Below, one piece after another: positions 1 through 8,511 of a DNA stretch of 64,000 bases (positions are counted from its first letter, which is position 1; every line of letters begins with the position of its first letter). The DNA comes from a phage. The stretch is taken from sequence record PQ478073.1. One strand, written 5' to 3'. A program made the position numbers and the translations under genes. The notes beneath the pieces were generated by a model, which was not told the DNA's origin, did not search any database, and saw only the letters and a program-made list of their open reading frames with translations.

Positions 1-131
1 CTGAACACACATATAGGAACACGACAAGAAATGAAAATGTTGCTAACGATTCGAATATTATCGAAGATGTTGAATTCATAAACACAATTTTTGATCGTTG
101 TTCTAAGGATTTAAAAAAAGTATACATGTAA

Positions 132-160
132 TGGGACATTATATGTTCCAATGATATAAT
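132..160 (+). promoter_or_regulatory. promoter-like site, class A (TGGGACA-N-TGaTATAAT)
   Basis: TGGGAC at 132-137, 17-nt spacer, TG-extended TATAAT at 155-160; same architecture recurs at 11231 and 30242. Confidence 0.55.
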
Positions 161-656
161 GTATATAGAAAATGACAACGGACATTGAAAAATGGACACT
201 GAGAACCTACTTCTCTTGAAAATGTAAAGGATAGATGAGCTTTACCGTTGTAGCGAACAGCAGAAGAAACCTGTTAGAGTACTGGCATTCAAACAAACAC
301 GATGTAAGACCACGAATCACGGCGACACGGCTGTATAAAGAACTCCGATAAGCATACAGAGAGTTCCTAGATAGATGTATAAGGTTCGCACCTTACCAGA
401 TTTGCTAAGGGAGTTCAAGGATAGCGGACGCAATTTTTACAAGAAAGTTGCGTCCAAAATTTGAGAACAAGTACTACTTTGATCGAATAGAGTTAGTACT
501 GAGTGCTGTTGATGAAAAGACCAGCGACCGTTGCATATGACTGCGATAGAGAGAAACCGAGCAACCCGCTTTCGCTCTCTAAATTTTGGTACAAGAAAGA
601 TCCGTCCAAAATTTGAGAAATTCGCAATTCGATAATATCCGATGCCATCATCGTCA

Positions 657-685
657 AGAGAGACTTAATTGTCTCTTTTTTATTA
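657..685 (+). terminator. rho-independent terminator
   Basis: agagagac / ttaatt / gtctct hairpin followed by ttttttatt. Confidence 0.6.
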
Positions 686-821
686 CCTTCATTCCCCTGC
701 GGGGGGATGTAATAGTCCTCAACAAATCCCGTCAAGTTTTTAAAGTACATTATCATTTTCAGAAGGAACTAGTTTACGAAGTAAACGCAGTGACTTCTTG
801 AGTTACGAGAGAACGAAGTGA

Positions 822-1250
822 ATGAGTAACACAACGAAAATATCCGATAAATCCGAATTAACACAAATGTTATTCAAAGAATATTTTGAGTTTCAGATAA
901 AAGACGAACATCAATTACCACAGCAATATTTGAAAAGAATTAAAGATCCGTCAGTAATTACTAAAGAAACTAATTTTTATAATAGTATTTTGGATTTCGT
1001 TAAATCAGTTCATACAACAAGACCTATTGTAGTTTTGTTTTTTGATAAATCTATTCCTTTAGTAGTTCCTGAAAATGTATTTTTTATTTCAGAAACTGAT
1101 TTAAATAATCAAAGTACTGTAAGTAGATTAAGAAATTGCTTACTTGTAGTATGTGATTCTTCTTTGTATAATAACAGAATACTATGGGATAGAAGTAAAC
1201 GCAATGCAGTTTCTGAAATGAATCCTGAAATTACCTTTATTATTAACTAA
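822..1250 (+). CDS. hypothetical protein (142 aa)
   Basis: ORF track; ATG start; first long ORF after terminator 657-685; no recognisable motif. Confidence 0.5.
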   Translation: MSNTTKISDKSELTQMLFKEYFEFQIKDEHQLPQQYLKRIKDPSVITKETNFYNSILDFVKSVHTTRPIVVLFFDKSIPLVVPENVFFISETDLNNQSTVSRLRNCLLVVCDSSLYNNRILWDRSKRNAVSEMNPEITFIIN

Positions 1251-1282
1251 ATAATAAGAGAATAACTCTAAGGAGAGATATT

Positions 1283-1723
1283 ATGGAAGATATTAATGAT
1301 TTACGACACGTAATGGACTTTATCGGTAGTACTGAAGAAGATAATTCGTATGATGAAGTACTATTAACTTTTATTGAAAATAGTTTGTTTTTAAGTTCTG
1401 CTGCACATAACTGGCACTTACAATGTCATTTTTATACAAAGCATTTACAATTAGATGAACTATATAAAGAATTACCAGAATATGTAGACGCATTTGTTGA
1501 AGGTATCATGAATAATCGTGGTGCTTTACAAGTTGGAACTGGTAATAGTTATCGTTTTACACCAATTGAAGATTGTGTACCAATTCTTGAAGAATATGTT
1601 GAGCAATGTAGAGCAATTCATGATATGCTTGAAGAATCAGGTGATTACGGCAGTGTAAACACATTAGAAGATATTATGAGTTTTGTTGAAGGAACACTTT
1701 ACAAACTTAAAGTTTTACAATAA
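1283..1723 (+). CDS. Dps-like ferritin-fold protein (146 aa)
   Basis: SD aaggagag upstream of ATG; segment AAHNWHLQCHFYTKHLQLDELYKELPEYVDAFVEG reproduces the Dps ferroxidase-site spacing H-x11-H-x14-D-x3-E. Confidence 0.6.
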   Translation: MEDINDLRHVMDFIGSTEEDNSYDEVLLTFIENSLFLSSAAHNWHLQCHFYTKHLQLDELYKELPEYVDAFVEGIMNNRGALQVGTGNSYRFTPIEDCVPILEEYVEQCRAIHDMLEESGDYGSVNTLEDIMSFVEGTLYKLKVLQ

Positions 1724-1730
1724 AATATAT

Positions 1731-1760
1731 GGAGAGTCATTGTGACTCTCCTTTTCTTTT
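1731..1760 (+). terminator. rho-independent terminator
   Basis: ggagagtca / ttg / tgactctcc hairpin followed by ttttctttt. Confidence 0.7.
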
Positions 1761-1771
1761 GGAGAAATAAA

Positions 1772-2389
1772 ATGAAATCTCATGATTTAGCAAAATTACT
1801 ACTATCTCAACCAAATCTAGAAATTTATCATTATGATGCAGAGAGTGACTTGCATTATCAGAATTTTGATAATAAATTAATGGTCACCCCATCTGGCATT
1901 TTCACAACGGTAAAACCCACATCAGTTTCTGAAAATGTACTTACACCATACGAAACCCCGCTCTTGGGTCATGTACAAATTTTCTTTAAGGATGGTACTA
2001 TTACTCCAAAATTGGAGGGTTCATCTATTCAAACTGTTCTTAACTTAGAATCTGGGTTGATATTTAACATTCCTTATGAAAAGCCAATTGTTTTATTAGG
2101 TAAAAATCAATCAGCACCATCAGGGAATCAAAATGCTGTTTGGTATACACCCGATGATATTGATTTCATTTCAGTACTGACAGAATATGATCCTAATACT
2201 TGGCATGAAACATGGGAAAATATGTCATATGATGAAGCAATTGAATGTGGTAAAAATTTAGCCAAAATGTTATTTCCACCAAAAAAAGAACTTTCACAAG
2301 AACAAAATGAATCATTTTCTAAAGATTTTCCTGATTCTGAATTCAATGTAAAAGTATCACCTTCTATGATTGATAAAATTGAAAAATAA
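1772..2389 (+). CDS. hypothetical protein (205 aa), paralogue of 3125..3709
   Basis: ORF track frame; start moved to ATG 1772 (SD ggagaa, downstream of terminator); N-terminus MKSHDLAKLLLSQPNLEIYHY matches MKAKDLAALLLQNPEMEVYHEH of 3125..3709. Confidence 0.6.
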   Translation: MKSHDLAKLLLSQPNLEIYHYDAESDLHYQNFDNKLMVTPSGIFTTVKPTSVSENVLTPYETPLLGHVQIFFKDGTITPKLEGSSIQTVLNLESGLIFNIPYEKPIVLLGKNQSAPSGNQNAVWYTPDDIDFISVLTEYDPNTWHETWENMSYDEAIECGKNLAKMLFPPKKELSQEQNESFSKDFPDSEFNVKVSPSMIDKIEK

Positions 2390-2401
2390 AAGAGGTTGAA
2401 C

Positions 2402-2755
2402 ATGAGTGATTACCGCGTAACATCTGGACTAATGGCACGTCTTATTGAAGCAGTTCCTGAAGATGATTATGAAGCTATTTCAGATCGTCTTTTTGACGCA
2501 GATTCTAAACTCCATATTACATATGATGGTGCATTGATTTACAGTACTGATATTGATATGTCTAGTTATGAATTTGAGATTTCTTTTGGTAACAAACTAA
2601 CTACTGAAGAATTCGCTCGAAAATGTGAGCGTGAAGGATTCTGTATTGATATTAGTTCAGTTCAGCCATATACATCACTGTGGTATGATGGTGCTGATAG
2701 TCCAATGTCTACTACATCTTTACAGGATTTTCTAAATGCAAATCAAAAAGATTAA
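2402..2755 (+). CDS. hypothetical protein (117 aa)
   Basis: ORF track frame; ATG 2402 preceded by agagg SD. Confidence 0.5.
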   Translation: MSDYRVTSGLMARLIEAVPEDDYEAISDRLFDADSKLHITYDGALIYSTDIDMSSYEFEISFGNKLTTEEFARKCEREGFCIDISSVQPYTSLWYDGADSPMSTTSLQDFLNANQKD

Positions 2756-3128
2756 ATTCCACCAGCATTGTTCTATACATGAATGTGATGATTGTGGTAT
2801 ACAAATGAGTGACATTTATACAGTTTCCTGTAAAGGTTTCAAATTCACTCACGGTGAACCTGCTTATTGTTATGGTACAGAAGAAGGTGATATCGAAGTA
2901 GTACTGAAAGAATTGTTCCAGTACTTGCAAAGTGTAGGTCATGATGTTACAATACCCACATATTATGAAGATGATTATGATGCACATGTAGAAGAAAATA
3001 CATATTATAATCAATTCGTTTATGGTAATGGTTTTATCACATATCTACATGAGAATGGTATTGAGGTAAAAACTAAGTACACCAGTGATGATTATGATGA
3101 TGATAATTCTATGGAGATTGAAGATTGA
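2736..3128 (+). CDS. hypothetical protein (130 aa), acidic, Cys-containing N-terminus
   Basis: ORF track; 20-nt overlap with upstream gene; start uncertain (alternative ATG 2805). Confidence 0.45.
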   Translation: MQIKKIKFHQHCSIHECDDCGIQMSDIYTVSCKGFKFTHGEPAYCYGTEEGDIEVVLKELFQYLQSVGHDVTIPTYYEDDYDAHVEENTYYNQFVYGNGFITYLHENGIEVKTKYTSDDYDDDNSMEIED

Positions 3129-3709
3129 AAGCAAAAGACTTAGCAGCACTGTTGTTGCAGAATCCTGAAATGGAAGTGTATCATGAGCACATGCACATTG
3201 ATGACATGTGTGACGCTTACTATTCACCAGAAAATGTGTCTGGTATTGAAATTACCCCTAGTGGCGTATTCATCAGTACTGAACGTATTGATTATAATTC
3301 CCAGCAAGAAATCAAAACTCCACATAATAAACCTCGCATTGGTGCTATTGACCTAGTATTTCATCAGGACCGTTTGGTAGAATATGATGAAGAAGATGGT
3401 ACTACCCGAACTGATGTTGAGAATGTAGTTTTTCGTTTTTATAATGCATACGAAGACCCAACTACTGGAGAAGATTTCTTCCGTGAGCTATTAGAGGATG
3501 GAGAAGTTTATGGTCAGGATGGTACGGTTTTTGTACTGGACCCTAACTATGAGCCAGATCACAATACATGGCAATTCTATACACCAGAAGATGTAATGGA
3601 AGTTAAAGTACTTACTGATCTTGACGATAAATGGAATCCTATGTATACTTCAATGACATATGAAGAAGCCAAAGAATACTTCGTTTCTAAACTAAACATT
3701 ACAAAATAA
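3125..3709 (+). CDS. hypothetical protein (194 aa), paralogue of 1772..2389
   Basis: TTG start overlapping upstream stop, GGAG SD 7 nt upstream; shares N-terminal motif and TPSG[IV]F / NTW motifs with 1772..2389. Confidence 0.55.
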   Translation: MKAKDLAALLLQNPEMEVYHEHMHIDDMCDAYYSPENVSGIEITPSGVFISTERIDYNSQQEIKTPHNKPRIGAIDLVFHQDRLVEYDEEDGTTRTDVENVVFRFYNAYEDPTTGEDFFRELLEDGEVYGQDGTVFVLDPNYEPDHNTWQFYTPEDVMEVKVLTDLDDKWNPMYTSMTYEEAKEYFVSKLNITK

Positions 3710-3726
3710 TAAGGATTCACAAATTT

Positions 3727-4008
3727 ATGAAAATTGTTGCAAGTGCATGGATGAAACTACCAGATGGTACAACTGCTTTTGAAGAATATGGCTTTGTTGA
3801 AAGTGTCGATGAATTAAAGCGTTTCAAGAGTGAAAATGATGATGATGTTTTTGATATTGTATTTGTATATCATCATATTCCTAATGATACTGATTATGAA
3901 CATTATTATTATCATCCTGATTTGTTGGAAACACTTGTATGCGACAACTATCATGAAATTGATGAAAATACAGCTTTACTAATGTTGAGTACCGTATCTC
4001 CGGTATAA
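3727..4008 (+). CDS. hypothetical protein (93 aa)
   Basis: ORF track; SD-like aaggattc upstream. Confidence 0.5.
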   Translation: MKIVASAWMKLPDGTTAFEEYGFVESVDELKRFKSENDDDVFDIVFVYHHIPNDTDYEHYYYHPDLLETLVCDNYHEIDENTALLMLSTVSPV

Positions 4009-4016
4009 GGAGTAAT

Positions 4017-4496
4017 ATGTATAATCTTATAATTATCCGCGAACCATATGAATCTGACAACAGTTCAACTGATGGTGAGGTTTTAGTATATCAAAGTTAT
4101 GAACAAAGTGGCATTGAACATGAATTAAAAGATTATTTACGTCAACATATATATCTATATCGTACCGAACCACGTGAACAGTATGGAGATATAATGTTTA
4201 TCGTAACTCATAATGGTGCAGTAATTGAACATGTAAATATGACAAATAACATGTATTTTCATAATTACACTGACACGTCTAAAGAATTAGGAAACGATTT
4301 CAAGTCTGTTTTCGATGCATTGCGTATCAATTTTTTTAAAAATGACAAATTCTGTACTGATATTAGATTAGAAGAAGCAAATACAAAAAAGAAACTTTCT
4401 CGAAAATACGAGAGTGATAGAAAAAAAGAACAAGAGATTCAGCGTTTACATGAATTGATGAAAAAATACCCTAATGAGGTACAACATGGCTCTTAG
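4017..4496 (+). CDS. hypothetical protein (159 aa)
   Basis: ORF track; aaggag SD upstream. Confidence 0.5.
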   Translation: MYNLIIIREPYESDNSSTDGEVLVYQSYEQSGIEHELKDYLRQHIYLYRTEPREQYGDIMFIVTHNGAVIEHVNMTNNMYFHNYTDTSKELGNDFKSVFDALRINFFKNDKFCTDIRLEEANTKKKLSRKYESDRKKEQEIQRLHELMKKYPNEVQHGS

Positions 4497-4824
4497 AGGT
4501 TCAAATCAATATAAATGTATTGCAGAGATCAGGAAGAAAGATGGAACACTTGTAGACCGAGCATTGAAGCAAGAATATAAAGAATTACGTGATGTGGTAC
4601 ATAATGATAGTTATGGTGGGATGCGTCGTCAAAAAATTTATGAATATCTAAAGAAAGGTTTAGAAATTCAGGTTAATGGTCTTCATTGCATTCAAACAAA
4701 AAACGATCCTGATATTCTACGTTTGTTGAAAGAAGATAAGATTGAAATGTTTAATGTTCCTATTTCATTCTATGGTAATAAACTAAAATGTAAGCATACT
4801 TTCTTGAGGATTAAAAATGGTTGA
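4474..4824 (+). CDS. hypothetical protein (116 aa), basic
   Basis: ORF track; overlaps upstream gene end. Confidence 0.45.
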   Translation: MRYNMALRGSNQYKCIAEIRKKDGTLVDRALKQEYKELRDVVHNDSYGGMRRQKIYEYLKKGLEIQVNGLHCIQTKNDPDILRLLKEDKIEMFNVPISFYGNKLKCKHTFLRIKNG

Positions 4825-5041
4825 TTCATTTATGAAAAAAATCTTTAAAAAATTACTATCTGGATTTGAAAAAGCAGTAAGTCTTATTTTCAGTTCAGTT
4901 GTAATGGTTATTACAGTACTGGTGTTTTCTCTAGTACTGCATTTTGTACCATTCTGGTTAATCTTTATTGTACTTATTGCTCTGCTAGGTGCACATGTTT
5001 ATTATGTTTACCGTGACGCATTGGATGATGATAACGATTAA
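4817..5041 (+). CDS. small membrane protein, holin-like topology (74 aa)
   Basis: GAGGA SD 6 nt before ATG; two predicted hydrophobic helices (VSLIFSSVVMVITVLVFSLVL, FWLIFIVLIALLGAHVYYVY) and acidic C-terminus DALDDDND. Confidence 0.45.
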   Translation: MVDSFMKKIFKKLLSGFEKAVSLIFSSVVMVITVLVFSLVLHFVPFWLIFIVLIALLGAHVYYVYRDALDDDND

Positions 5042-5049
5042 ATGTATTT

Positions 5050-5074
5050 GACCTCACTATGTGGGGTCTTTTTT
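5050..5074 (+). terminator. rho-independent terminator
   Basis: gacctcac / tat / gtggggtc hairpin (one mismatch) followed by tttttt. Confidence 0.5.
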
Positions 5075-5086
5075 AAGGAAAATTAT

Positions 5087-5539
5087 ATGCTTATAGAAAC
5101 AGAAACATTTAAGCGTTTTATTGACGTATGTCGTGATACGTGTTTTTGTTATCTTTCATCACAAGAACAGTTCGATGCAATGAGTGATGTGTTAGGTTAT
5201 CGCCGTTCGGTATTGATGTATTTTGATGGTCCTTTGATTGAAGTTCATGATGATGTGTATTCCCTACAATATGTATCAATTAACAATGCGTTCATTTTTA
5301 TTGCTGACTCGTACTCAATTGTAGTTGAGGAACGTGGTAAAGGTATACCAACAACACACTATATTGATTGTCAAAGAACTGATTGTGTTTATAGTTCTGG
5401 ACTAATACAAACACCAATTCCATATCCTAGCATTTATATAAACACACTCCATCAAGAAATTATTGAGTACTGTAATAGTATTTCTGATACAGATACACAG
5501 TATTTTCCTATTGTATTATTGAAAGGAGTTAGAACATGA
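5087..5539 (+). CDS. hypothetical protein (150 aa)
   Basis: ORF track frame; start placed at ATG 5087 downstream of terminator with aagga SD. Confidence 0.5.
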   Translation: MLIETETFKRFIDVCRDTCFCYLSSQEQFDAMSDVLGYRRSVLMYFDGPLIEVHDDVYSLQYVSINNAFIFIADSYSIVVEERGKGIPTTHYIDCQRTDCVYSSGLIQTPIPYPSIYINTLHQEIIEYCNSISDTDTQYFPIVLLKGVRT

Positions 5540-6656: not shown

Positions 6657-7067
6657 ATGATTGAAATGGAAGGAACTCTGGTGTATGATCCAGATCGTGG
6701 CACTATGAAAAAGAAGAAGGACTTCTGGTTAGTACTACAACTTCCATTACAGTTGGTTCGATACTACCAGTACTTCATCAGAACTGACTTACATATTGAT
6801 ATTAAAGACCCACAATGGGGAGCACATGTCAGTATCGTTCGTGGTGAAGTGCCACCAAATCCAGAGTACTGGAAAAAGTACGATGGAATGAAAGTAAAGA
6901 TAAAGTTCAATCCTTGTATTGAGATAGTAAAAGATAAAAAGAATCCAGGTTCATTCTTTATCATTGAATTTGAAGATGATTTCATCACACATATTAGAAA
7001 TGAACTAGGACTACCAACCAAGTACTTTAAATATCACATCACTGTAGGTAGAACTTACTACGATTAA
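6657..7067 (+). CDS. 2H phosphoesterase superfamily protein (136 aa)
   Basis: Two H-x-[TS]-x motifs with hydrophobic fourth residue (AHVSIV and YHITVG) about 70 residues apart, the hallmark of the LigT/2H fold. Confidence 0.55.
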   Translation: MIEMEGTLVYDPDRGTMKKKKDFWLVLQLPLQLVRYYQYFIRTDLHIDIKDPQWGAHVSIVRGEVPPNPEYWKKYDGMKVKIKFNPCIEIVKDKKNPGSFFIIEFEDDFITHIRNELGLPTKYFKYHITVGRTYYD

Positions 7068-7235
7068 TGTGGTTTTTACAGTAAATATGTCTTGTAATAA
7101 AATAAAAATATGCTATACTACTTAAACATTTGAAAAGAACGTTTTTGTACTGTAGAAAGTCCGATGAGGCTTTTGCAAATGGCCTCTTTGCCATCTTTGT
7201 GATTGCCCATCTTAACAATCAACAAAGGAGGCGTT

Positions 7236-8162
7236 TTGAAACAAGCGAAAAAAGCACTGAAAACTAAGACTACTTATGGTGTTCTAGTTTGCACAGTACT
7301 TGTCGCTGCGATTGGATTTTATGGTTTTTCTCAAAATGATCGTGTATCATCATCGGACGAAAGTCAGGTACACAATTTAAAACCACAAGTTACGCAAATT
7401 CAAAAGCAGGAATTACCAAAGGTAGAAATATCAAAGGATGTTCCACGCGGCGAGAAGCATTATACGGTTCAACCTGGTGATAGTTATTATTCTATTGCTA
7501 AAAAGTTTAAACCTAAAAATGTACAACTTGAAGAGTATGTTATTTTGTTGAAAAATATCAATTTAAATGCTACTCTTCATACTTCTCAGGGTATCTTTAT
7601 CCCAACAAAAGAGGATTTGAAGAACGTATTGTTACCAGATGTGACTGTACTGTTTGATTATAATGATCCAGAAATTGTCAATCACATCAAAGAAGCTGAA
7701 GGTTCAATTGAATTTCAGTCCAAGAACAAACGCCGTTTACTTGGTGGGAAAGTCGGAGTTCCTTTCCACAATTCTAAATTTCATCCCTACAAGGACATGA
7801 AAGGTAATTATACAATAGGTTATGGGCATTATTTGGGTAGAAAAGAATCTGATGCGATTAAGTACAGAAACGGTATTACCAAAGCTCAAGCCAATAAACT
7901 TTTAATGCAAGATATGAAAAGAACATATAATGACTTTTTATTATTGATGCAGAAAAAAGAAGCAGTAAATCTGACCAAAGAACAACAACGTATTCTTTAT
8001 GAAATGTCCTATACAATGGGTGTTGATAAATTAGCAACGTTTAATAAACTTTGGAAAAGTGTGAAAAATGATAACCCTAAGAAATTTAAAAAAGAAATTA
8101 TGAATTCCTTATGGTATCGTCAAGTTACAAACCGAGCAGATTTGTTGTTAAGTTCACTCTAA
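7236..8162 (+). CDS. membrane-anchored LysM + T4-lysozyme-family (GH24-like) protein
   Basis: Perfect SD aaaggagg then TTG 7236 (ORF track starts 7203); N-terminal hydrophobic helix VLVCTVLVAAIGFYGF; LysM-like YTVQPGDSYYSIAKKF; lysozyme motifs YKDMKGNYTIGYGH, GITKAQANKLLMQDM, SLWYRQVTNRADLL parallel T4 lysozyme. Confidence 0.7.
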   Translation: MKQAKKALKTKTTYGVLVCTVLVAAIGFYGFSQNDRVSSSDESQVHNLKPQVTQIQKQELPKVEISKDVPRGEKHYTVQPGDSYYSIAKKFKPKNVQLEEYVILLKNINLNATLHTSQGIFIPTKEDLKNVLLPDVTVLFDYNDPEIVNHIKEAEGSIEFQSKNKRRLLGGKVGVPFHNSKFHPYKDMKGNYTIGYGHYLGRKESDAIKYRNGITKAQANKLLMQDMKRTYNDFLLLMQKKEAVNLTKEQQRILYEMSYTMGVDKLATFNKLWKSVKNDNPKKFKKEIMNSLWYRQVTNRADLLLSSL

Positions 8163-8178: not shown

Positions 8179-8511
8179 ATGCTAAATCTAAATATTCAAG
8201 GCAACGTTGATATCACTCCAGCAATCCAAGATGCTATTTACAATGAAGCAAAAAGTCTGGATAAGTACCGTACTTCTTCAGTACTAGACATTGGTGTTCA
8301 TGTTAAGAAAGAGCATAAAACTCAATATGCTGTAACTTTAACTGCTGGTAGTAAATCAGTAACTGCTGATGATGCTGATTTGTATAAAGCAATTGTTGAA
8401 TCTTTTGATAAGATGGAAACTGTATTCAGTAAAGACAAAAGCATTAAATTACACCGCAGAAACCATCCAGAACACCCAGTTCTTGATGATTTGACAGAAA
8501 ACGAAGAGTAA
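8179..8511 (+). CDS. hypothetical protein (110 aa)
   Basis: ORF track; aaggaaggtg SD. Confidence 0.5.
   Translation: MLNLNIQGNVDITPAIQDAIYNEAKSLDKYRTSSVLDIGVHVKKEHKTQYAVTLTAGSKSVTADDADLYKAIVESFDKMETVFSKDKSIKLHRRNHPEHPVLDDLTENEE

What the first reader, a model, noticed from the sequence alone, without database searches (positions are those of the whole stretch)
1283..1723. Phage-encoded Dps-like mini-ferritin
The 146-aa product reproduces the Dps ferroxidase-centre ligand spacing (H-x11-H-x14-D-x3-E within AAHNWHLQCHFYTKHLQLDELYKELPEYVDAFVEG) and is the right size for a four-helix-bundle Dps subunit. Dps proteins are bacterial stress and DNA-protection proteins; a phage copy is unusual and could protect phage DNA from oxidative damage or sequester iron during infection.
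Basis: partly seen in the sequence, partly recalled or inferred. Interest (0 to 1): 0.5.

Follow-up and report, generated by a model that had tools for sequence, protein, structure and literature searches.

The report
Phage Dps-like mini-ferritin, T4 RI.-1 family
This gene of a giant E. coli/Salmonella phage encodes a small, very acidic four-helix protein that is a distant relative of the bacterial iron-detoxifying protein Dps; it belongs to a phage-only family that also includes the uncharacterised T4 gene rI.-1, is very common in large phages, and has never been tested biochemically.

Summary
The ORF (1283-1723, +, 146 aa) is real, with a strong RBS and an intrinsic-terminator hairpin after the stop. 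The quoted H-x11-H-x14-D-x3-E string is present and unique in the window. The window is an Asteriusvirus (PBECO4/121Q/phAPEC6-like jumbo phage).

The protein is a clear member of Pfam DUF5856 and PHROG 858. I show that T4 RI.-1 (MobD.6) belongs to the same family. A family profile hits only Dps proteins among solved structures (E=2e-9; hhalign 92.5%). AlphaFold models (pLDDT 81 and 90) are ferritin-like four-helix bundles whose best Foldseek matches are Dps.

Across 149 distant representatives H45, H54, D69 and E73 are invariant. The family motif is therefore H-x8-H-x14-D-x3-E, with a shorter A-B loop than Dps.

"Dps-like" is supported. "Unusual in a phage" is not: homologues occur in over 1,400 phage records, and sister phages already carry ferritin-like or starvation-inducible labels. 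DNA binding by a basic tail is unlikely (pI 4.3, acidic N-terminus).

Open lead: the identical phAPEC6 protein and the CBB orthologue were detected by mass spectrometry in CsCl-purified virions. Function remains untested.

The parts
1270..1277 (+). Shine-Dalgarno sequence AAGGAGAG, 5 nt upstream of the ATG
   Evidence: Read directly from the sequence
1283..1723 (+). CDS of the 146-aa DUF5856 / RI.-1-family Dps-like protein (16.89 kDa, pI 4.3); 100% identical to phAPEC6 gp306c and PBECO4 gp055
1406..1501 (+). Codons for H42-E73 (end of helix A, A-B turn, helix B). Holds the putative inter-subunit ferroxidase-centre ligands H45 (1415-1417), H54 (1442-1444), D58 (1454-1456), D69 (1487-1489), E73 (1499-1501), plus clade-specific H42 (1406-1408) and W44
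   Evidence: Conservation; alignment to Dps ligands; motif positions
1520..1564 (+). Codons for residues 80-94: long B-C connection, predicted non-helical at high confidence (canonical Dps has a short helix here)
   Evidence: DSSP strings; pLDDT of blocks 71-90 is 91-94 in model 2
1649..1717 (+). Codons for G123-L145 (helix D): conserved G-S-x-N-x-L-E-D-I...L-Y-K-L-K-x-L. E129/D130 are acidic in about 89%/80% of the family; Y140 and K141 are nearly invariant. Aligns to the GDYGTANIMDDIM...LW region of Borrelia NapA (a Dps)
1731..1760 (+). Intrinsic-terminator-like hairpin GGAGAGTCA-TTG-TGACTCTCC (9 bp, 5 GC) followed by TTTTCTTTT, starting 8 nt after the stop codon
   Evidence: sequence

Best explanation
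The gene encodes a soluble, very acidic Dps-like mini-ferritin of the phage-specific RI.-1/DUF5856 family.

Shown: it is a four-helix ferritin-like bundle homologous to Dps. It keeps, under strict conservation, the residues that in Dps form the ferroxidase centre: H45 (with H42 in this clade), H54 and D58, which in Dps come from one subunit, and D69 and E73, which come from the two-fold-related subunit.

Inferred: H54 and D69 lie 15 residues (about 22 A) apart on the same helix, so they cannot share a metal within one chain. Their joint invariance implies a Dps-type antiparallel dimer interface, and probably a dodecameric cage. The protein would bind Fe(II) at that interface, oxidise it with H2O2 or O2 and sequester the iron. 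This would lower Fenton chemistry, or buffer iron, in the infected cell during the long replication cycle of large virulent myoviruses.

It is probably not a transcription factor. It probably does not bind DNA in the manner of E. coli Dps. The strong RBS and a dedicated terminator suggest abundant expression.
For: 1. Family membership: PF19174 DUF5856 at 99.8 bits against a cutoff of 34.6; PHROG 858 at E=1.9e-35.
2. Homology to Dps:
- single-sequence phmmer hits to PDB are nearly all Dps (12 of 14), best E=2.3e-4;
- a 98-sequence family profile hits S. aureus Dps at 2e-9, MrgA, Listeria Dps and Dlp-2 at about 2-3e-7, and HP-NAP and NapA; almost all hits with E<1e-3 are Dps;
- hhalign to a mixed Dps profile gives 92.5%, E=4.8e-7 over 92 columns.
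3. Fold:
- AF2 models have pLDDT 80.9/pTM 0.76 and pLDDT 90.0/pTM 0.82, with helices 21-47, 51-79, 95-118 and 122-144;
- the Foldseek top 50 are almost all Dps, TM 0.6-0.73, probability 1.00;
4. Ligand conservation:
- H42, W44, H45, H54, D58, D69 and E73 are invariant in 27 homologues down to 52% identity;
- H45, H54 and E73 are present in all 147 aligned rows (D69 in 146) among 149 representatives of 50%-identity clusters;
- T4 RI.-1 keeps them too.
5. No conserved ExxH-type ligands on helices C or D. This excludes a ferritin/bacterioferritin-type intrasubunit site and fits the Dps type.
6. The motif is unique in the window and rare in shuffles.
7. JGI already named two homologues 'DNA-binding ferritin-like protein'. 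Depositors of sister phages used 'ferritin like protein' or 'starvation-inducible DNA-binding protein'.
Against: 1. No biochemical data exist for any family member. No paper in the searched library contains 'DUF5856'.
2. Scores are below the curated thresholds of Pfam Ferritin (18.6 < 24.5) and NCBIfam Dps (15.4 < 114). Only 4 of 98 family members touch PF00210 at all.
4. The A-B loop is 3 residues shorter than in Dps. The identity of the first His ligand (H42 or H45) is ambiguous between alignments.
5. The B-C connection lacks the short helix that sits on the Dps two-fold axis.
6. D58 is replaced by G, N or Q in more than half of distant members.
7. Oligomeric state, metal binding and catalysis could not be tested.
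8. The only experimental claim for a family member (T4 RI.-1) concerns lysis inhibition, not iron (PMC2962797).
Confidence: 0.6

Rival explanations
1. Virion-associated protein. The Dps-like protein is carried in or on the phage particle as capsid cargo, an inner-body component or a decoration, possibly still as a metal-binding cage. It would act inside the capsid or at the next infection rather than, or as well as, in the cytoplasm.
For: - The identical protein, phAPEC6 gp306c, is among 62 proteins found by ESI-MS/MS in CsCl-purified virions: 6 unique peptides and 65.8% coverage, among the highest coverages in the table (PMC7247149).
- CBB_169, the Pectobacterium phage CBB orthologue, was detected in CBB virions with 3 peptides and 26.3% coverage, and was deposited as 'structural protein'.
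- A protein with the PHROG-858 label gave 26/27 spectra in CsCl-purified T4-like Jiaodavirus virions (PMC13119998).
- The T4 rI operon has a late as well as an early promoter (PMC2962797).
- phAPEC6 has an inner body of unknown composition.
Against: - The same phAPEC6 list contains thymidylate synthase, RecA-like protein, SSB, topoisomerase and PhoH, so abundant non-structural proteins do come through.
- The protein is not reported as structural in RaK2, where it is discussed only as an RI.-1 homologue, and is not flagged in GAP32. That makes 2 of 4 Rak2-like proteomes.
- RI.-1 is not among the classically defined T4 virion proteins (own knowledge).
- A roughly 200-kDa cage, denser if iron-loaded, could co-band with phage in CsCl (inference from ferritin properties).
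- I did not verify directly that the Jiaodavirus protein is a DUF5856 member. T4 RI.-1 homologues at about 62% identity do exist in such Klebsiella phages.
Confidence: 0.2
2. Accessory regulator of lysis timing, as proposed for T4 RI.-1. The protein would modulate holin/antiholin (T-RI-RIII) function, and its resemblance to Dps would be a structural relic.
For: - T4 RI.-1 is a bona fide family member (PF19174 E=5e-33; hhalign 98.7%).
- It sits in the rI.1-rI-rI.-1 operon.
- Overexpression from a plasmid slightly prolonged lysis inhibition, synergised with RIII and relieved RIII toxicity (PMC2962797; reviewed in PMC6832632).
- In PBECO4 an Rz-like spanin gene lies about 3 kb upstream.
Against: - The evidence is overexpression only and the effects are small. 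No knock-out phenotype or physical interaction is reported.
- The RaK2 authors note that RaK2 lacks RI, RI.1, RIII and the T holin yet keeps this gene (PMC3622015).
- The ten neighbouring ORFs in this window are all PHROGs of unknown function, with no rI-like gene.
- The family is also present in Ackermannviridae, Aeromonas, Vibrio and metagenomic phages.
- A pure protein-protein regulator would not need four invariant metal-ligand residues arranged exactly as in Dps.
Confidence: 0.1
3. DNA-binding nucleoid protein or 'starvation-inducible transcriptional regulator', as the RefSeq and pharokka annotation says. It would bind and compact or regulate DNA.
For: - The annotation label in PBECO4 and many other records.
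- Some Dps proteins bind and condense DNA (established knowledge).
- The Jiaodavirus authors listed the protein under 'DNA-associated proteins'.
Against: - The label is simply the KEGG/JGI-style name of Dps carried over by profile similarity. True Dps proteins carry 'starvation-inducible DNA-binding protein'.
- No DNA-binding domain is found.
- The protein has pI 4.30 and net charge about -20. Its first 25 residues hold 9 acidic and 1 basic residue, the opposite of the Lys-rich N-tail used by E. coli Dps. The family median pI is 4.8.
- The closest structural matches include A. tumefaciens Dps, described as protecting DNA without binding it.
Confidence: 0.05

Closest known systems
Bacteriophage T4 RI.-1 (MobD.6, NP_049716.1) and Pfam DUF5856 / PHROG 858
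   Same: Same family: PF19174 gives 99.8 bits for the query and E=5e-33 for T4 RI.-1. Both are small acidic four-helix proteins. The same invariant residues H45, H54, D69, E73 and Y140 are kept; in T4, F replaces Y61 and L replaces K141. Both are found in large virulent myoviruses.
   Different: About 17% identity in the hhalign alignment. T4 RI.-1 is 128 aa and lacks the roughly 20-residue acidic N-terminal extension. It lies in the rI lysis-inhibition operon next to tk, whereas here the neighbours are unrelated genes of unknown function. The function of RI.-1 is itself unknown beyond an overexpression phenotype (PMC2962797).
Bacterial Dps mini-ferritins, closest to the Firmicute type (S. aureus Dps 2d5k, B. 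subtilis MrgA 2chp, Listeria innocua Dps 1qgh, B. anthracis Dlp-2 1jig)
   Same: Ferritin-like four-helix bundle of about 150 aa. The aligned ferroxidase-centre residues are H45/H54/D58/D69/E73, equivalent to Listeria H31/H43/D47/D58/E62. A conserved aromatic residue sits next to the first His, there is a conserved acidic patch at the start of helix D, and there is a conserved aromatic residue near the C-terminus (Y140 against Dps Trp).
   Different: - 15-23% identity, and below the curated Pfam and NCBIfam thresholds.
- The A-B loop is 3 residues shorter, giving H-x8-H instead of H-x11-H.
- Trp precedes rather than follows the His (W44-H45 against H-W).
- No short helix is predicted in the B-C connection.
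- The N-terminus is strongly acidic rather than Lys-rich.
- The family appears phage-specific.
- Dodecamer formation and ferroxidase activity are untested.
Canonical Dps genes already reported in phages (Lactobacillus plantarum myophages; 'Gratiaviridae' and 36 other gut phages; Campylobacter phage CPt10 CPT_0123)
   Same: Phage-borne members of the Dps branch of the ferritin superfamily. All are proposed to limit iron and peroxide damage during infection (PMC6669764, PMC8008677, PMC2853527).
   Different: Those look like recent acquisitions of host-type Dps. For example, CPT_0123 is 30% identical to Helicobacter Dps at 4e-12 by plain BLAST. The present family is an old, phage-restricted and much more divergent lineage that ordinary BLAST does not connect to Dps.
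Ferritin / bacterioferritin (maxi-ferritins) and other ferritin-like diiron proteins
   Different: No conserved intrasubunit E...ExxH...E...ExxH ligands. Helices C and D carry no invariant metal ligands. No significant sequence hits to Ftn or Bfr.

Membership tests
Pfam DUF5856 (PF19174) / PHROG 858 / T4 RI.-1 family | Score above the curated gathering threshold of PF19174 over the whole model | tested here: met
   99.8 bits against a cutoff of 34.6; residues 45-142 cover model positions 1-94 of 94. PHROG 858 E=1.9e-35. All 27 close homologues carry PF19174.
Pfam DUF5856 (PF19174) / PHROG 858 / T4 RI.-1 family | Family-invariant residues H45, H54, Y61, D69, E73, Y140, K141 | tested here: met
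   All are present in the query. Frequencies in 149 distant representatives: 147, 147, 145, 146, 147, 144 and 137.
Pfam DUF5856 (PF19174) / PHROG 858 / T4 RI.-1 family | T4 RI.-1 itself belongs to the same family (justifies the name) | tested here: met
   T4 RI.-1 hits PF19174 at E=5e-33. hhalign to the family alignment gives 98.7%, E=2.2e-16.
Pfam DUF5856 (PF19174) / PHROG 858 / T4 RI.-1 family | Location in an rI (antiholin) lysis-inhibition operon, as in T4 | tested here: not met
   The ten neighbouring ORFs (822-5539) match only PHROGs of unknown function and no Pfam family. The RaK2 authors report no RI, RI.1, RIII or T in RaK2. This is a T4-specific context and not a defining feature of the protein family.
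Dps (DNA-binding protein from starved cells; mini-ferritin) | Ferritin-like four-helix bundle subunit of about 150 residues | tested here: met
   [not shown]
Dps (DNA-binding protein from starved cells; mini-ferritin) | Statistically significant sequence homology to Dps proteins | tested here: met
   The family profile against PDB gives 2d5k at 2e-9, six more Dps sequences at or below 1.3e-6, and almost no non-Dps hit below 1e-3. hhalign to a mixed Dps profile gives 92.5%, E=4.8e-7. It is weak against a shallow enterobacterial-only profile (10.9%).
Dps (DNA-binding protein from starved cells; mini-ferritin) | Passes curated family models (Pfam PF00210 Ferritin; NCBIfam NF006975 Dps) | tested here: not met
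   PF00210 gives 18.6 bits against a cutoff of 24.5. NF006975 gives 15.4 bits against a cutoff of 114. Only 4 of 98 family members hit PF00210 at E<0.01.
Dps (DNA-binding protein from starved cells; mini-ferritin) | Inter-subunit ferroxidase-centre ligands on helices A and B (His, His, Asp from one subunit; Asp, Glu from the partner) | tested here: met
   H45 (or H42), H54, D58, D69 and E73 align to Listeria H31, H43, D47, D58 and E62. They are invariant in close homologues. H45, H54, D69 and E73 are invariant family-wide. Only sequence position was tested, not metal binding.
Dps (DNA-binding protein from starved cells; mini-ferritin) | Canonical H-W ... H spacing of 11 residues between the two His ligands | tested here: inconclusive
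   H42-x11-H54 exists in this clade, but H42 is present in only 92 of about 124 distant members. Two alignments put H45 at the ligand position with a 3-residue deletion, and one puts H42 there. Trp is N-terminal to H45, not C-terminal.
Dps (DNA-binding protein from starved cells; mini-ferritin) | Short helix in the B-C loop lying on the two-fold axis | tested here: not met
   Residues 80-94 are predicted as coil in both models, with pLDDT 91-94 for that stretch in model 2. This is a prediction only.
Dps (DNA-binding protein from starved cells; mini-ferritin) | Assembly into a hollow dodecamer with 23 symmetry | not testable with these tools
   Only monomer prediction was available. Indirect argument: H54 and D69 are 15 residues apart on one helix, so a shared site requires a Dps-type dimer.
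Dps (DNA-binding protein from starved cells; mini-ferritin) | Fe(II) oxidation by H2O2/O2 and iron-core formation | not testable with these tools
   No experimental data found for any DUF5856 member.
Dps (DNA-binding protein from starved cells; mini-ferritin) | Basic N- or C-terminal tail mediating DNA binding (present in E. coli Dps and M. smegmatis Dps1; absent in several true Dps) | tested here: not met
   The first 25 residues hold 9 acidic and 1 basic residue. The whole protein has pI 4.30 and charge -20. This is not a universal Dps feature, so it lowers 'binds DNA' and not 'is Dps-like'.
Dps (DNA-binding protein from starved cells; mini-ferritin) | Acidic residues at the start of helix D lining the ferritin-like three-fold pore | tested here: inconclusive
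   E129 and D130 are acidic in 132/149 and 119/149 representatives and align with the DD of Borrelia NapA 'MDDIM'. The mapping to pore residues rests on my recollection of the Listeria Dps literature.
Ferritin / bacterioferritin (intrasubunit diiron centre) | Conserved Glu / ExxH ligands on all four helices inside the bundle | tested here: not met
   No invariant E or H on helices C or D. Positions 103, 113 and 117 vary freely. No significant Ftn or Bfr sequence hit.

The most novel reading that the evidence does not exclude
RI.-1/DUF5856 proteins are Dps-like iron nanocages, or capsid cargo, that are truly carried with the virions of large myoviruses (T4-like, Rak2-like, Vi1-like). This would parallel the ferritin-like cargo of HK97-fold encapsulins. 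Such a protein could protect densely packed DNA from Fenton damage, or bring or buffer iron for iron-containing virion and replication proteins. The weak lysis-inhibition phenotype of T4 rI.-1 would then be an indirect iron or redox effect. It would give the first function to a conserved T4 gene and add a metal-handling component to phage particles.
Probability: 0.12. Interest if true: 0.8.

Novelty: new member of a known kind. Interest (0 to 1): 0.42.

Why it matters
The gene itself is ordinary in one sense. The exact protein is already in GenBank, belongs to a curated (though uncharacterised) Pfam family, and sister-phage records already carry ferritin-like or starvation-inducible labels.

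What is worth knowing is the family-level picture:
- A phage-restricted, deeply divergent branch of Dps with strictly conserved ferroxidase-type ligands is present in well over a thousand sequenced large myoviruses, including T4 (gene rI.-1).
- No paper I could find connects RI.-1/DUF5856 with Dps chemistry.
- The only experimental claim, an overexpression effect on lysis inhibition, does not explain the conserved metal site or the presence of the gene in phages without the lysis-inhibition system.
- If the protein is an active ferroxidase, iron and peroxide management becomes a general, phage-encoded part of large-phage infection.
- If the repeated detection in purified virions is real, it would be a new kind of virion component.
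- Both questions can be tested directly in T4 with standard genetics and biochemistry.

The current RefSeq and pharokka product name 'starvation-inducible transcriptional regulator' is misleading and should read 'Dps-like ferritin-superfamily protein (RI.-1/DUF5856)'.

Tried and rejected
1. Chance motif: rejected. The pattern is unique in the six-frame window, occurs in 0.15% of shuffles, and is conserved in homologues.
2. Canonical Dps membership: rejected. Scores are below the Pfam and NCBIfam cutoffs.
4. H42 and D58 co-varying as a second metal site: the data show a negative association (odds ratio 0.21, p=8e-4). Phylogeny was not controlled, so I draw no conclusion.
6. Gene neighbourhood: ten flanking ORFs gave only PHROGs of unknown function and no Pfam family. 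No context clue.
7. T4-type late promoter TATAAATA upstream: none in the whole window. The sigma-70-like scan was at background level. Expression timing is therefore unknown.
8. C-terminal extensions of long family members: no Pfam domain.
9. Literature: 'DUF5856' gave 0 papers, and 'Dps-like' plus 'jumbo phage' gave 0 papers.
10. Rfam and tRNA scan of the upstream non-coding stretch: nothing.
11. Not possible: multimer structure prediction, and residue-level superposition of the model on a Dps dimer.
Full report
**1. The observation**

The ORF at 1283-1723 (+ strand, ATG start, 146 aa) is present exactly as described. It has a strong Shine-Dalgarno sequence, AAGGAGAG, at 1270-1277, 5 nt before the ATG. 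A 9-bp GC-rich hairpin followed by TTTTCTTTT lies at 1731-1760, 8 nt after the stop codon. It therefore looks like a well-expressed gene at the end of a transcription unit.

The quoted peptide is residues 40-74, and H42-x11-H54-x14-D69-x3-E73 is there. The pattern occurs only once in the six-frame translation of the whole 64-kb window, and in 0.15% of 200,000 shuffles of this protein.

**2. Where the window comes from**

Bases 800-4500 are 98.5-99.8% identical to Escherichia and Salmonella jumbo phages of the genus Asteriusvirus (PBECO4, 121Q-like, phAPEC6, SP27, UB, SD-15_S21). The gene is PBECO4 gp055, named 'starvation-inducible transcriptional regulator' in RefSeq. It is 100% identical to phAPEC6 gp306c.

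**3. Family assignment**

- The protein matches Pfam DUF5856 (PF19174) at 99.8 bits against a cutoff of 34.6.
- It touches Pfam Ferritin (PF00210) only below threshold (18.6 < 24.5 bits).
- It matches PHROG 858 at E=1.9e-35.
- NCBIfam gives only a far sub-threshold hit to the Dps equivalog (15.4 against 114 bits).
- The 27 homologues in the 5.8-billion-protein index all carry PF19174. Two were named 'DNA-binding ferritin-like protein' by JGI.
- An exhaustive profile search of 1.84 billion cluster representatives finds 750 members at E<=1e-3. Many carry extra N- or C-terminal regions that have no Pfam domain.

RaK2's annotators had labelled their copy 'rI.-1'. I therefore tested T4 RI.-1 (MobD.6, 128 aa) directly. 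It hits PF19174 at E=5e-33 and aligns to the family profile with 98.7% probability. The family is thus the T4 RI.-1 family.

**4. Relationship to Dps**

- Single-sequence phmmer against all PDB sequences returns mainly Dps-family proteins (12 of 14 hits), but weakly (best 2.3e-4).
- A 98-sequence family profile (A2) returns S. aureus Dps at 2e-9. B. subtilis MrgA, Listeria Dps and B. anthracis Dlp-2 come at 2-3e-7. B. brevis Dps, Borrelia NapA and HP-NAP come at about 1e-5.
- Almost all hits below 1e-3 are Dps (one de novo-designed helical protein at 3.8e-4 is the exception), and there is no ferritin or bacterioferritin.
- hhalign against a shallow profile of enterobacterial Dps only is weak (10.9%).
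- hhalign against a more diverse Dps profile gives 92.5% probability, E=4.8e-7, over 92 columns. That profile combined Listeria, S. aureus, MrgA and Dlp-2 sequences taken from the tool outputs with five enterobacterial Dps.
- Two AlphaFold models agree on four long helices at 21-47, 51-79, 95-118 and 122-144. They were built with 28 sequences (pLDDT 80.9, pTM 0.76) and 98 sequences (pLDDT 90.0, pTM 0.82).
- Foldseek against the PDB lists almost only Dps in the top 50 for both models (TM 0.6-0.73, probability 1.00, E about 1e-2).

Conclusion: this is a divergent homologue of Dps, not a canonical Dps.

**5. The ligand pattern, corrected**

In 27 homologues down to 52% identity, H42, W44, H45, H54, D58, D69 and E73 are all invariant.

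Across 149 representatives of 50%-identity clusters the counts are:
- invariant: H45 (147/147 aligned rows), H54 (147), D69 (146), E73 (147), Y61 (145), Y140 (144), K141 (137);
- variable: H42 (92 of about 124), W44 (67), D58 (61; otherwise G, N or Q).

The HMMER and the better hhalign alignments place H45 at the first ferroxidase His of Dps (Listeria H31, E. coli H51), with a 3-residue deletion in the A-B loop. H54, D58, D69 and E73 fall on Listeria H43, D47, D58 and E62. One alignment pairs H42 instead.

Helices C and D carry no invariant metal ligands, which excludes a ferritin/bacterioferritin-type intrasubunit diiron site.

H54 and D69 are 15 residues apart on one helix, so a common site needs a Dps-type two-fold dimer. 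This step is an inference, not a demonstration.

**6. Differences from Dps**

- The A-B loop is shorter.
- Trp precedes the His rather than following it.
- No short helix is predicted in the B-C connection, residues 80-94.
- The protein is very acidic: pI 4.30, charge about -20. The first 25 residues hold 9 acidic and 1 basic residue. The family median pI is 4.8.

E. coli-type DNA binding through a Lys-rich tail is therefore unlikely. The product name 'transcriptional regulator' has no support. It is the KEGG/JGI-style name of Dps ('starvation-inducible DNA-binding protein', as true Dps are named) carried over and distorted.

**7. How common it is**

- tblastn with this protein finds 180 phage records. 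They include Rak2-like jumbo phages of Escherichia, Salmonella, Klebsiella, Erwinia, Serratia, Yersinia, Cronobacter, Pectobacterium and Xanthomonas. They also include T4-like Aeromonas phages, Vi1-like Ackermannviridae, and Proteus and Vibrio phages.
- With T4 RI.-1 as query, 1,441 of 50,697 records match.
- Some depositors already wrote 'ferritin like protein' (Salmonella phages SE_PL and Munch) or 'starvation-inducible DNA-binding protein' (121Q, Serratia BF, Erwinia phages).
- Canonical Dps genes in phages are also in the literature (PMC6669764; PMC8008677; PMC2853527).

A phage copy is therefore not unusual.

**8. What is known experimentally**

No paper in the library contains 'DUF5856'.

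For T4 RI.-1, Golec et al. (PMC2962797) report the following:
- plasmid overexpression slightly prolongs lysis inhibition and synergises with RIII;
- the rI operon has early and late promoters.

Neither that paper nor Abedon's review (PMC6832632) mentions Dps or iron.

The RaK2 paper points out that RaK2 has this gene but lacks RI, RI.1, RIII and the T holin (PMC3622015). In this window the ten flanking ORFs are all of unknown function. A dedicated lysis-inhibition role therefore cannot be the general function of the family.

**9. An unplanned lead: virion association**

- The identical phAPEC6 protein gp306c (16.90 kDa; I compute 16,894.7 Da) is in the table of 62 proteins detected by ESI-MS/MS in CsCl-purified virions. 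It had 6 unique peptides and 65.8% coverage (PMC7247149).
- The CBB orthologue CBB_169 was detected in CBB virions (3 peptides, 26.3% coverage) and deposited as 'structural protein'.
- A protein with the same PHROG label gave 26/27 spectra in CsCl-purified T4-like Jiaodavirus virions (PMC13119998).

Against this:
- the phAPEC6 list also contains thymidylate synthase, RecA-like protein, SSB and topoisomerase;
- RaK2 and GAP32 proteomics did not flag the orthologue;
- an abundant cage of about 200 kDa could co-purify with the particles.

I treat packaging as a rival or additional reading at about 0.2.

**10. Verdict**

Its claim of rarity is wrong, and its exact ligand spacing is coincidental.

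- Most likely mechanism (0.6): a Dps-type inter-subunit metal/ferroxidase site in an oligomeric, probably dodecameric, acidic cage that sequesters iron in the infected cell.
- Novelty: a member of a known but uncharacterised family, which is itself a divergent branch of a well-known kind.
- Interest: moderate. The family includes a T4 gene, is very widespread, has an unexplained conserved metal site, and recurs in virion proteomes. All of this is directly testable.

Noticed in passing
window 130-800: About 700 nt with no convincing ORF, only short overlapping antisense ORFs of 87 and 71 aa. It is unannotated in PBECO4 (the gap between gp057 and gp056). It has a promoter-like GGGACA-16-TATAAT with an upstream TG at 133-160, a hairpin agagagac/gtctctc plus T-run at about 655-685, a direct repeat 'gtccaaaatttgaga' at about 453 and about 603, and visibly higher G+C than the flanks. 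No Rfam hit at E<=1 and no tRNA or tmRNA. It could be a roughly 500-nt non-coding RNA or a leader.
   Followed up: partly
whole window (1-64000), both strands: The octamer TATAAATA, the T4 late-promoter consensus (own knowledge), is completely absent. Dinucleotide-preserving shuffles give 10.2 +/- 3.1 expected. Either the motif is avoided in this presumably early region, or the phage uses another late-promoter motif.
   Followed up: no
window 8179-8511 (+): A phage-encoded HPF/RaiA-type ribosome hibernation factor (PF02482, E=3.3e-10; PBECO4 gp039). This is a second 'stationary-phase-type' bacterial protein, encoded about 6.5 kb downstream of the Dps-like gene.
   Followed up: partly
window 7203-8162 (+): A 319-aa protein with an N-terminal transmembrane-like segment, a LysM domain and a phage lysozyme domain (PF01476, PF00959). 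It is probably the endolysin or a signal-anchored lysin.
   Followed up: partly
window 1772-2389 (+) and 3125-3709 (+): Two paralogous genes, both PHROG 18200 of unknown function, with similar N-termini (MKSHDLAKLLLSQPNLEIYHYD / MKAKDLAALLLQNPEMEVYHEH). They lie just downstream of the Dps-like gene.
   Followed up: no
proteins P0045, P0051, P0056, P0063, P0079 and others (metagenomic): A large DUF5856 subfamily has the Dps-like domain at the N-terminus (MTIEELFGTLQ...W-R-K-H...), followed by 80-270 residues of hypervariable C-terminal sequence with no Pfam match. Others have the domain at the C-terminus of 250-830-aa proteins (P0084, P0121, P0154, P0174). If the domain forms a cage, these would display 12 variable domains on its surface.
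   Followed up: partly
family alignment, query positions 42 and 58: H42 and an acidic residue at position 58 are negatively associated among 124 distant members (36/56 against 24/8; odds ratio 0.21; Fisher p=8e-4). They may be alternative ligands at one spot. Shared ancestry was not controlled.
   Followed up: partly
[not shown]
   Followed up: no
L004 (T4 NC_000866) 6820-7206; L003 (RaK2); L005 (CBB): A thymidine kinase gene lies within 0.6-2 kb of the RI.-1-family gene in T4, RaK2 and CBB. None is annotated within 9 kb downstream in PBECO4. This may be remnant synteny between T4-like and Rak2-like phages.
   Followed up: no
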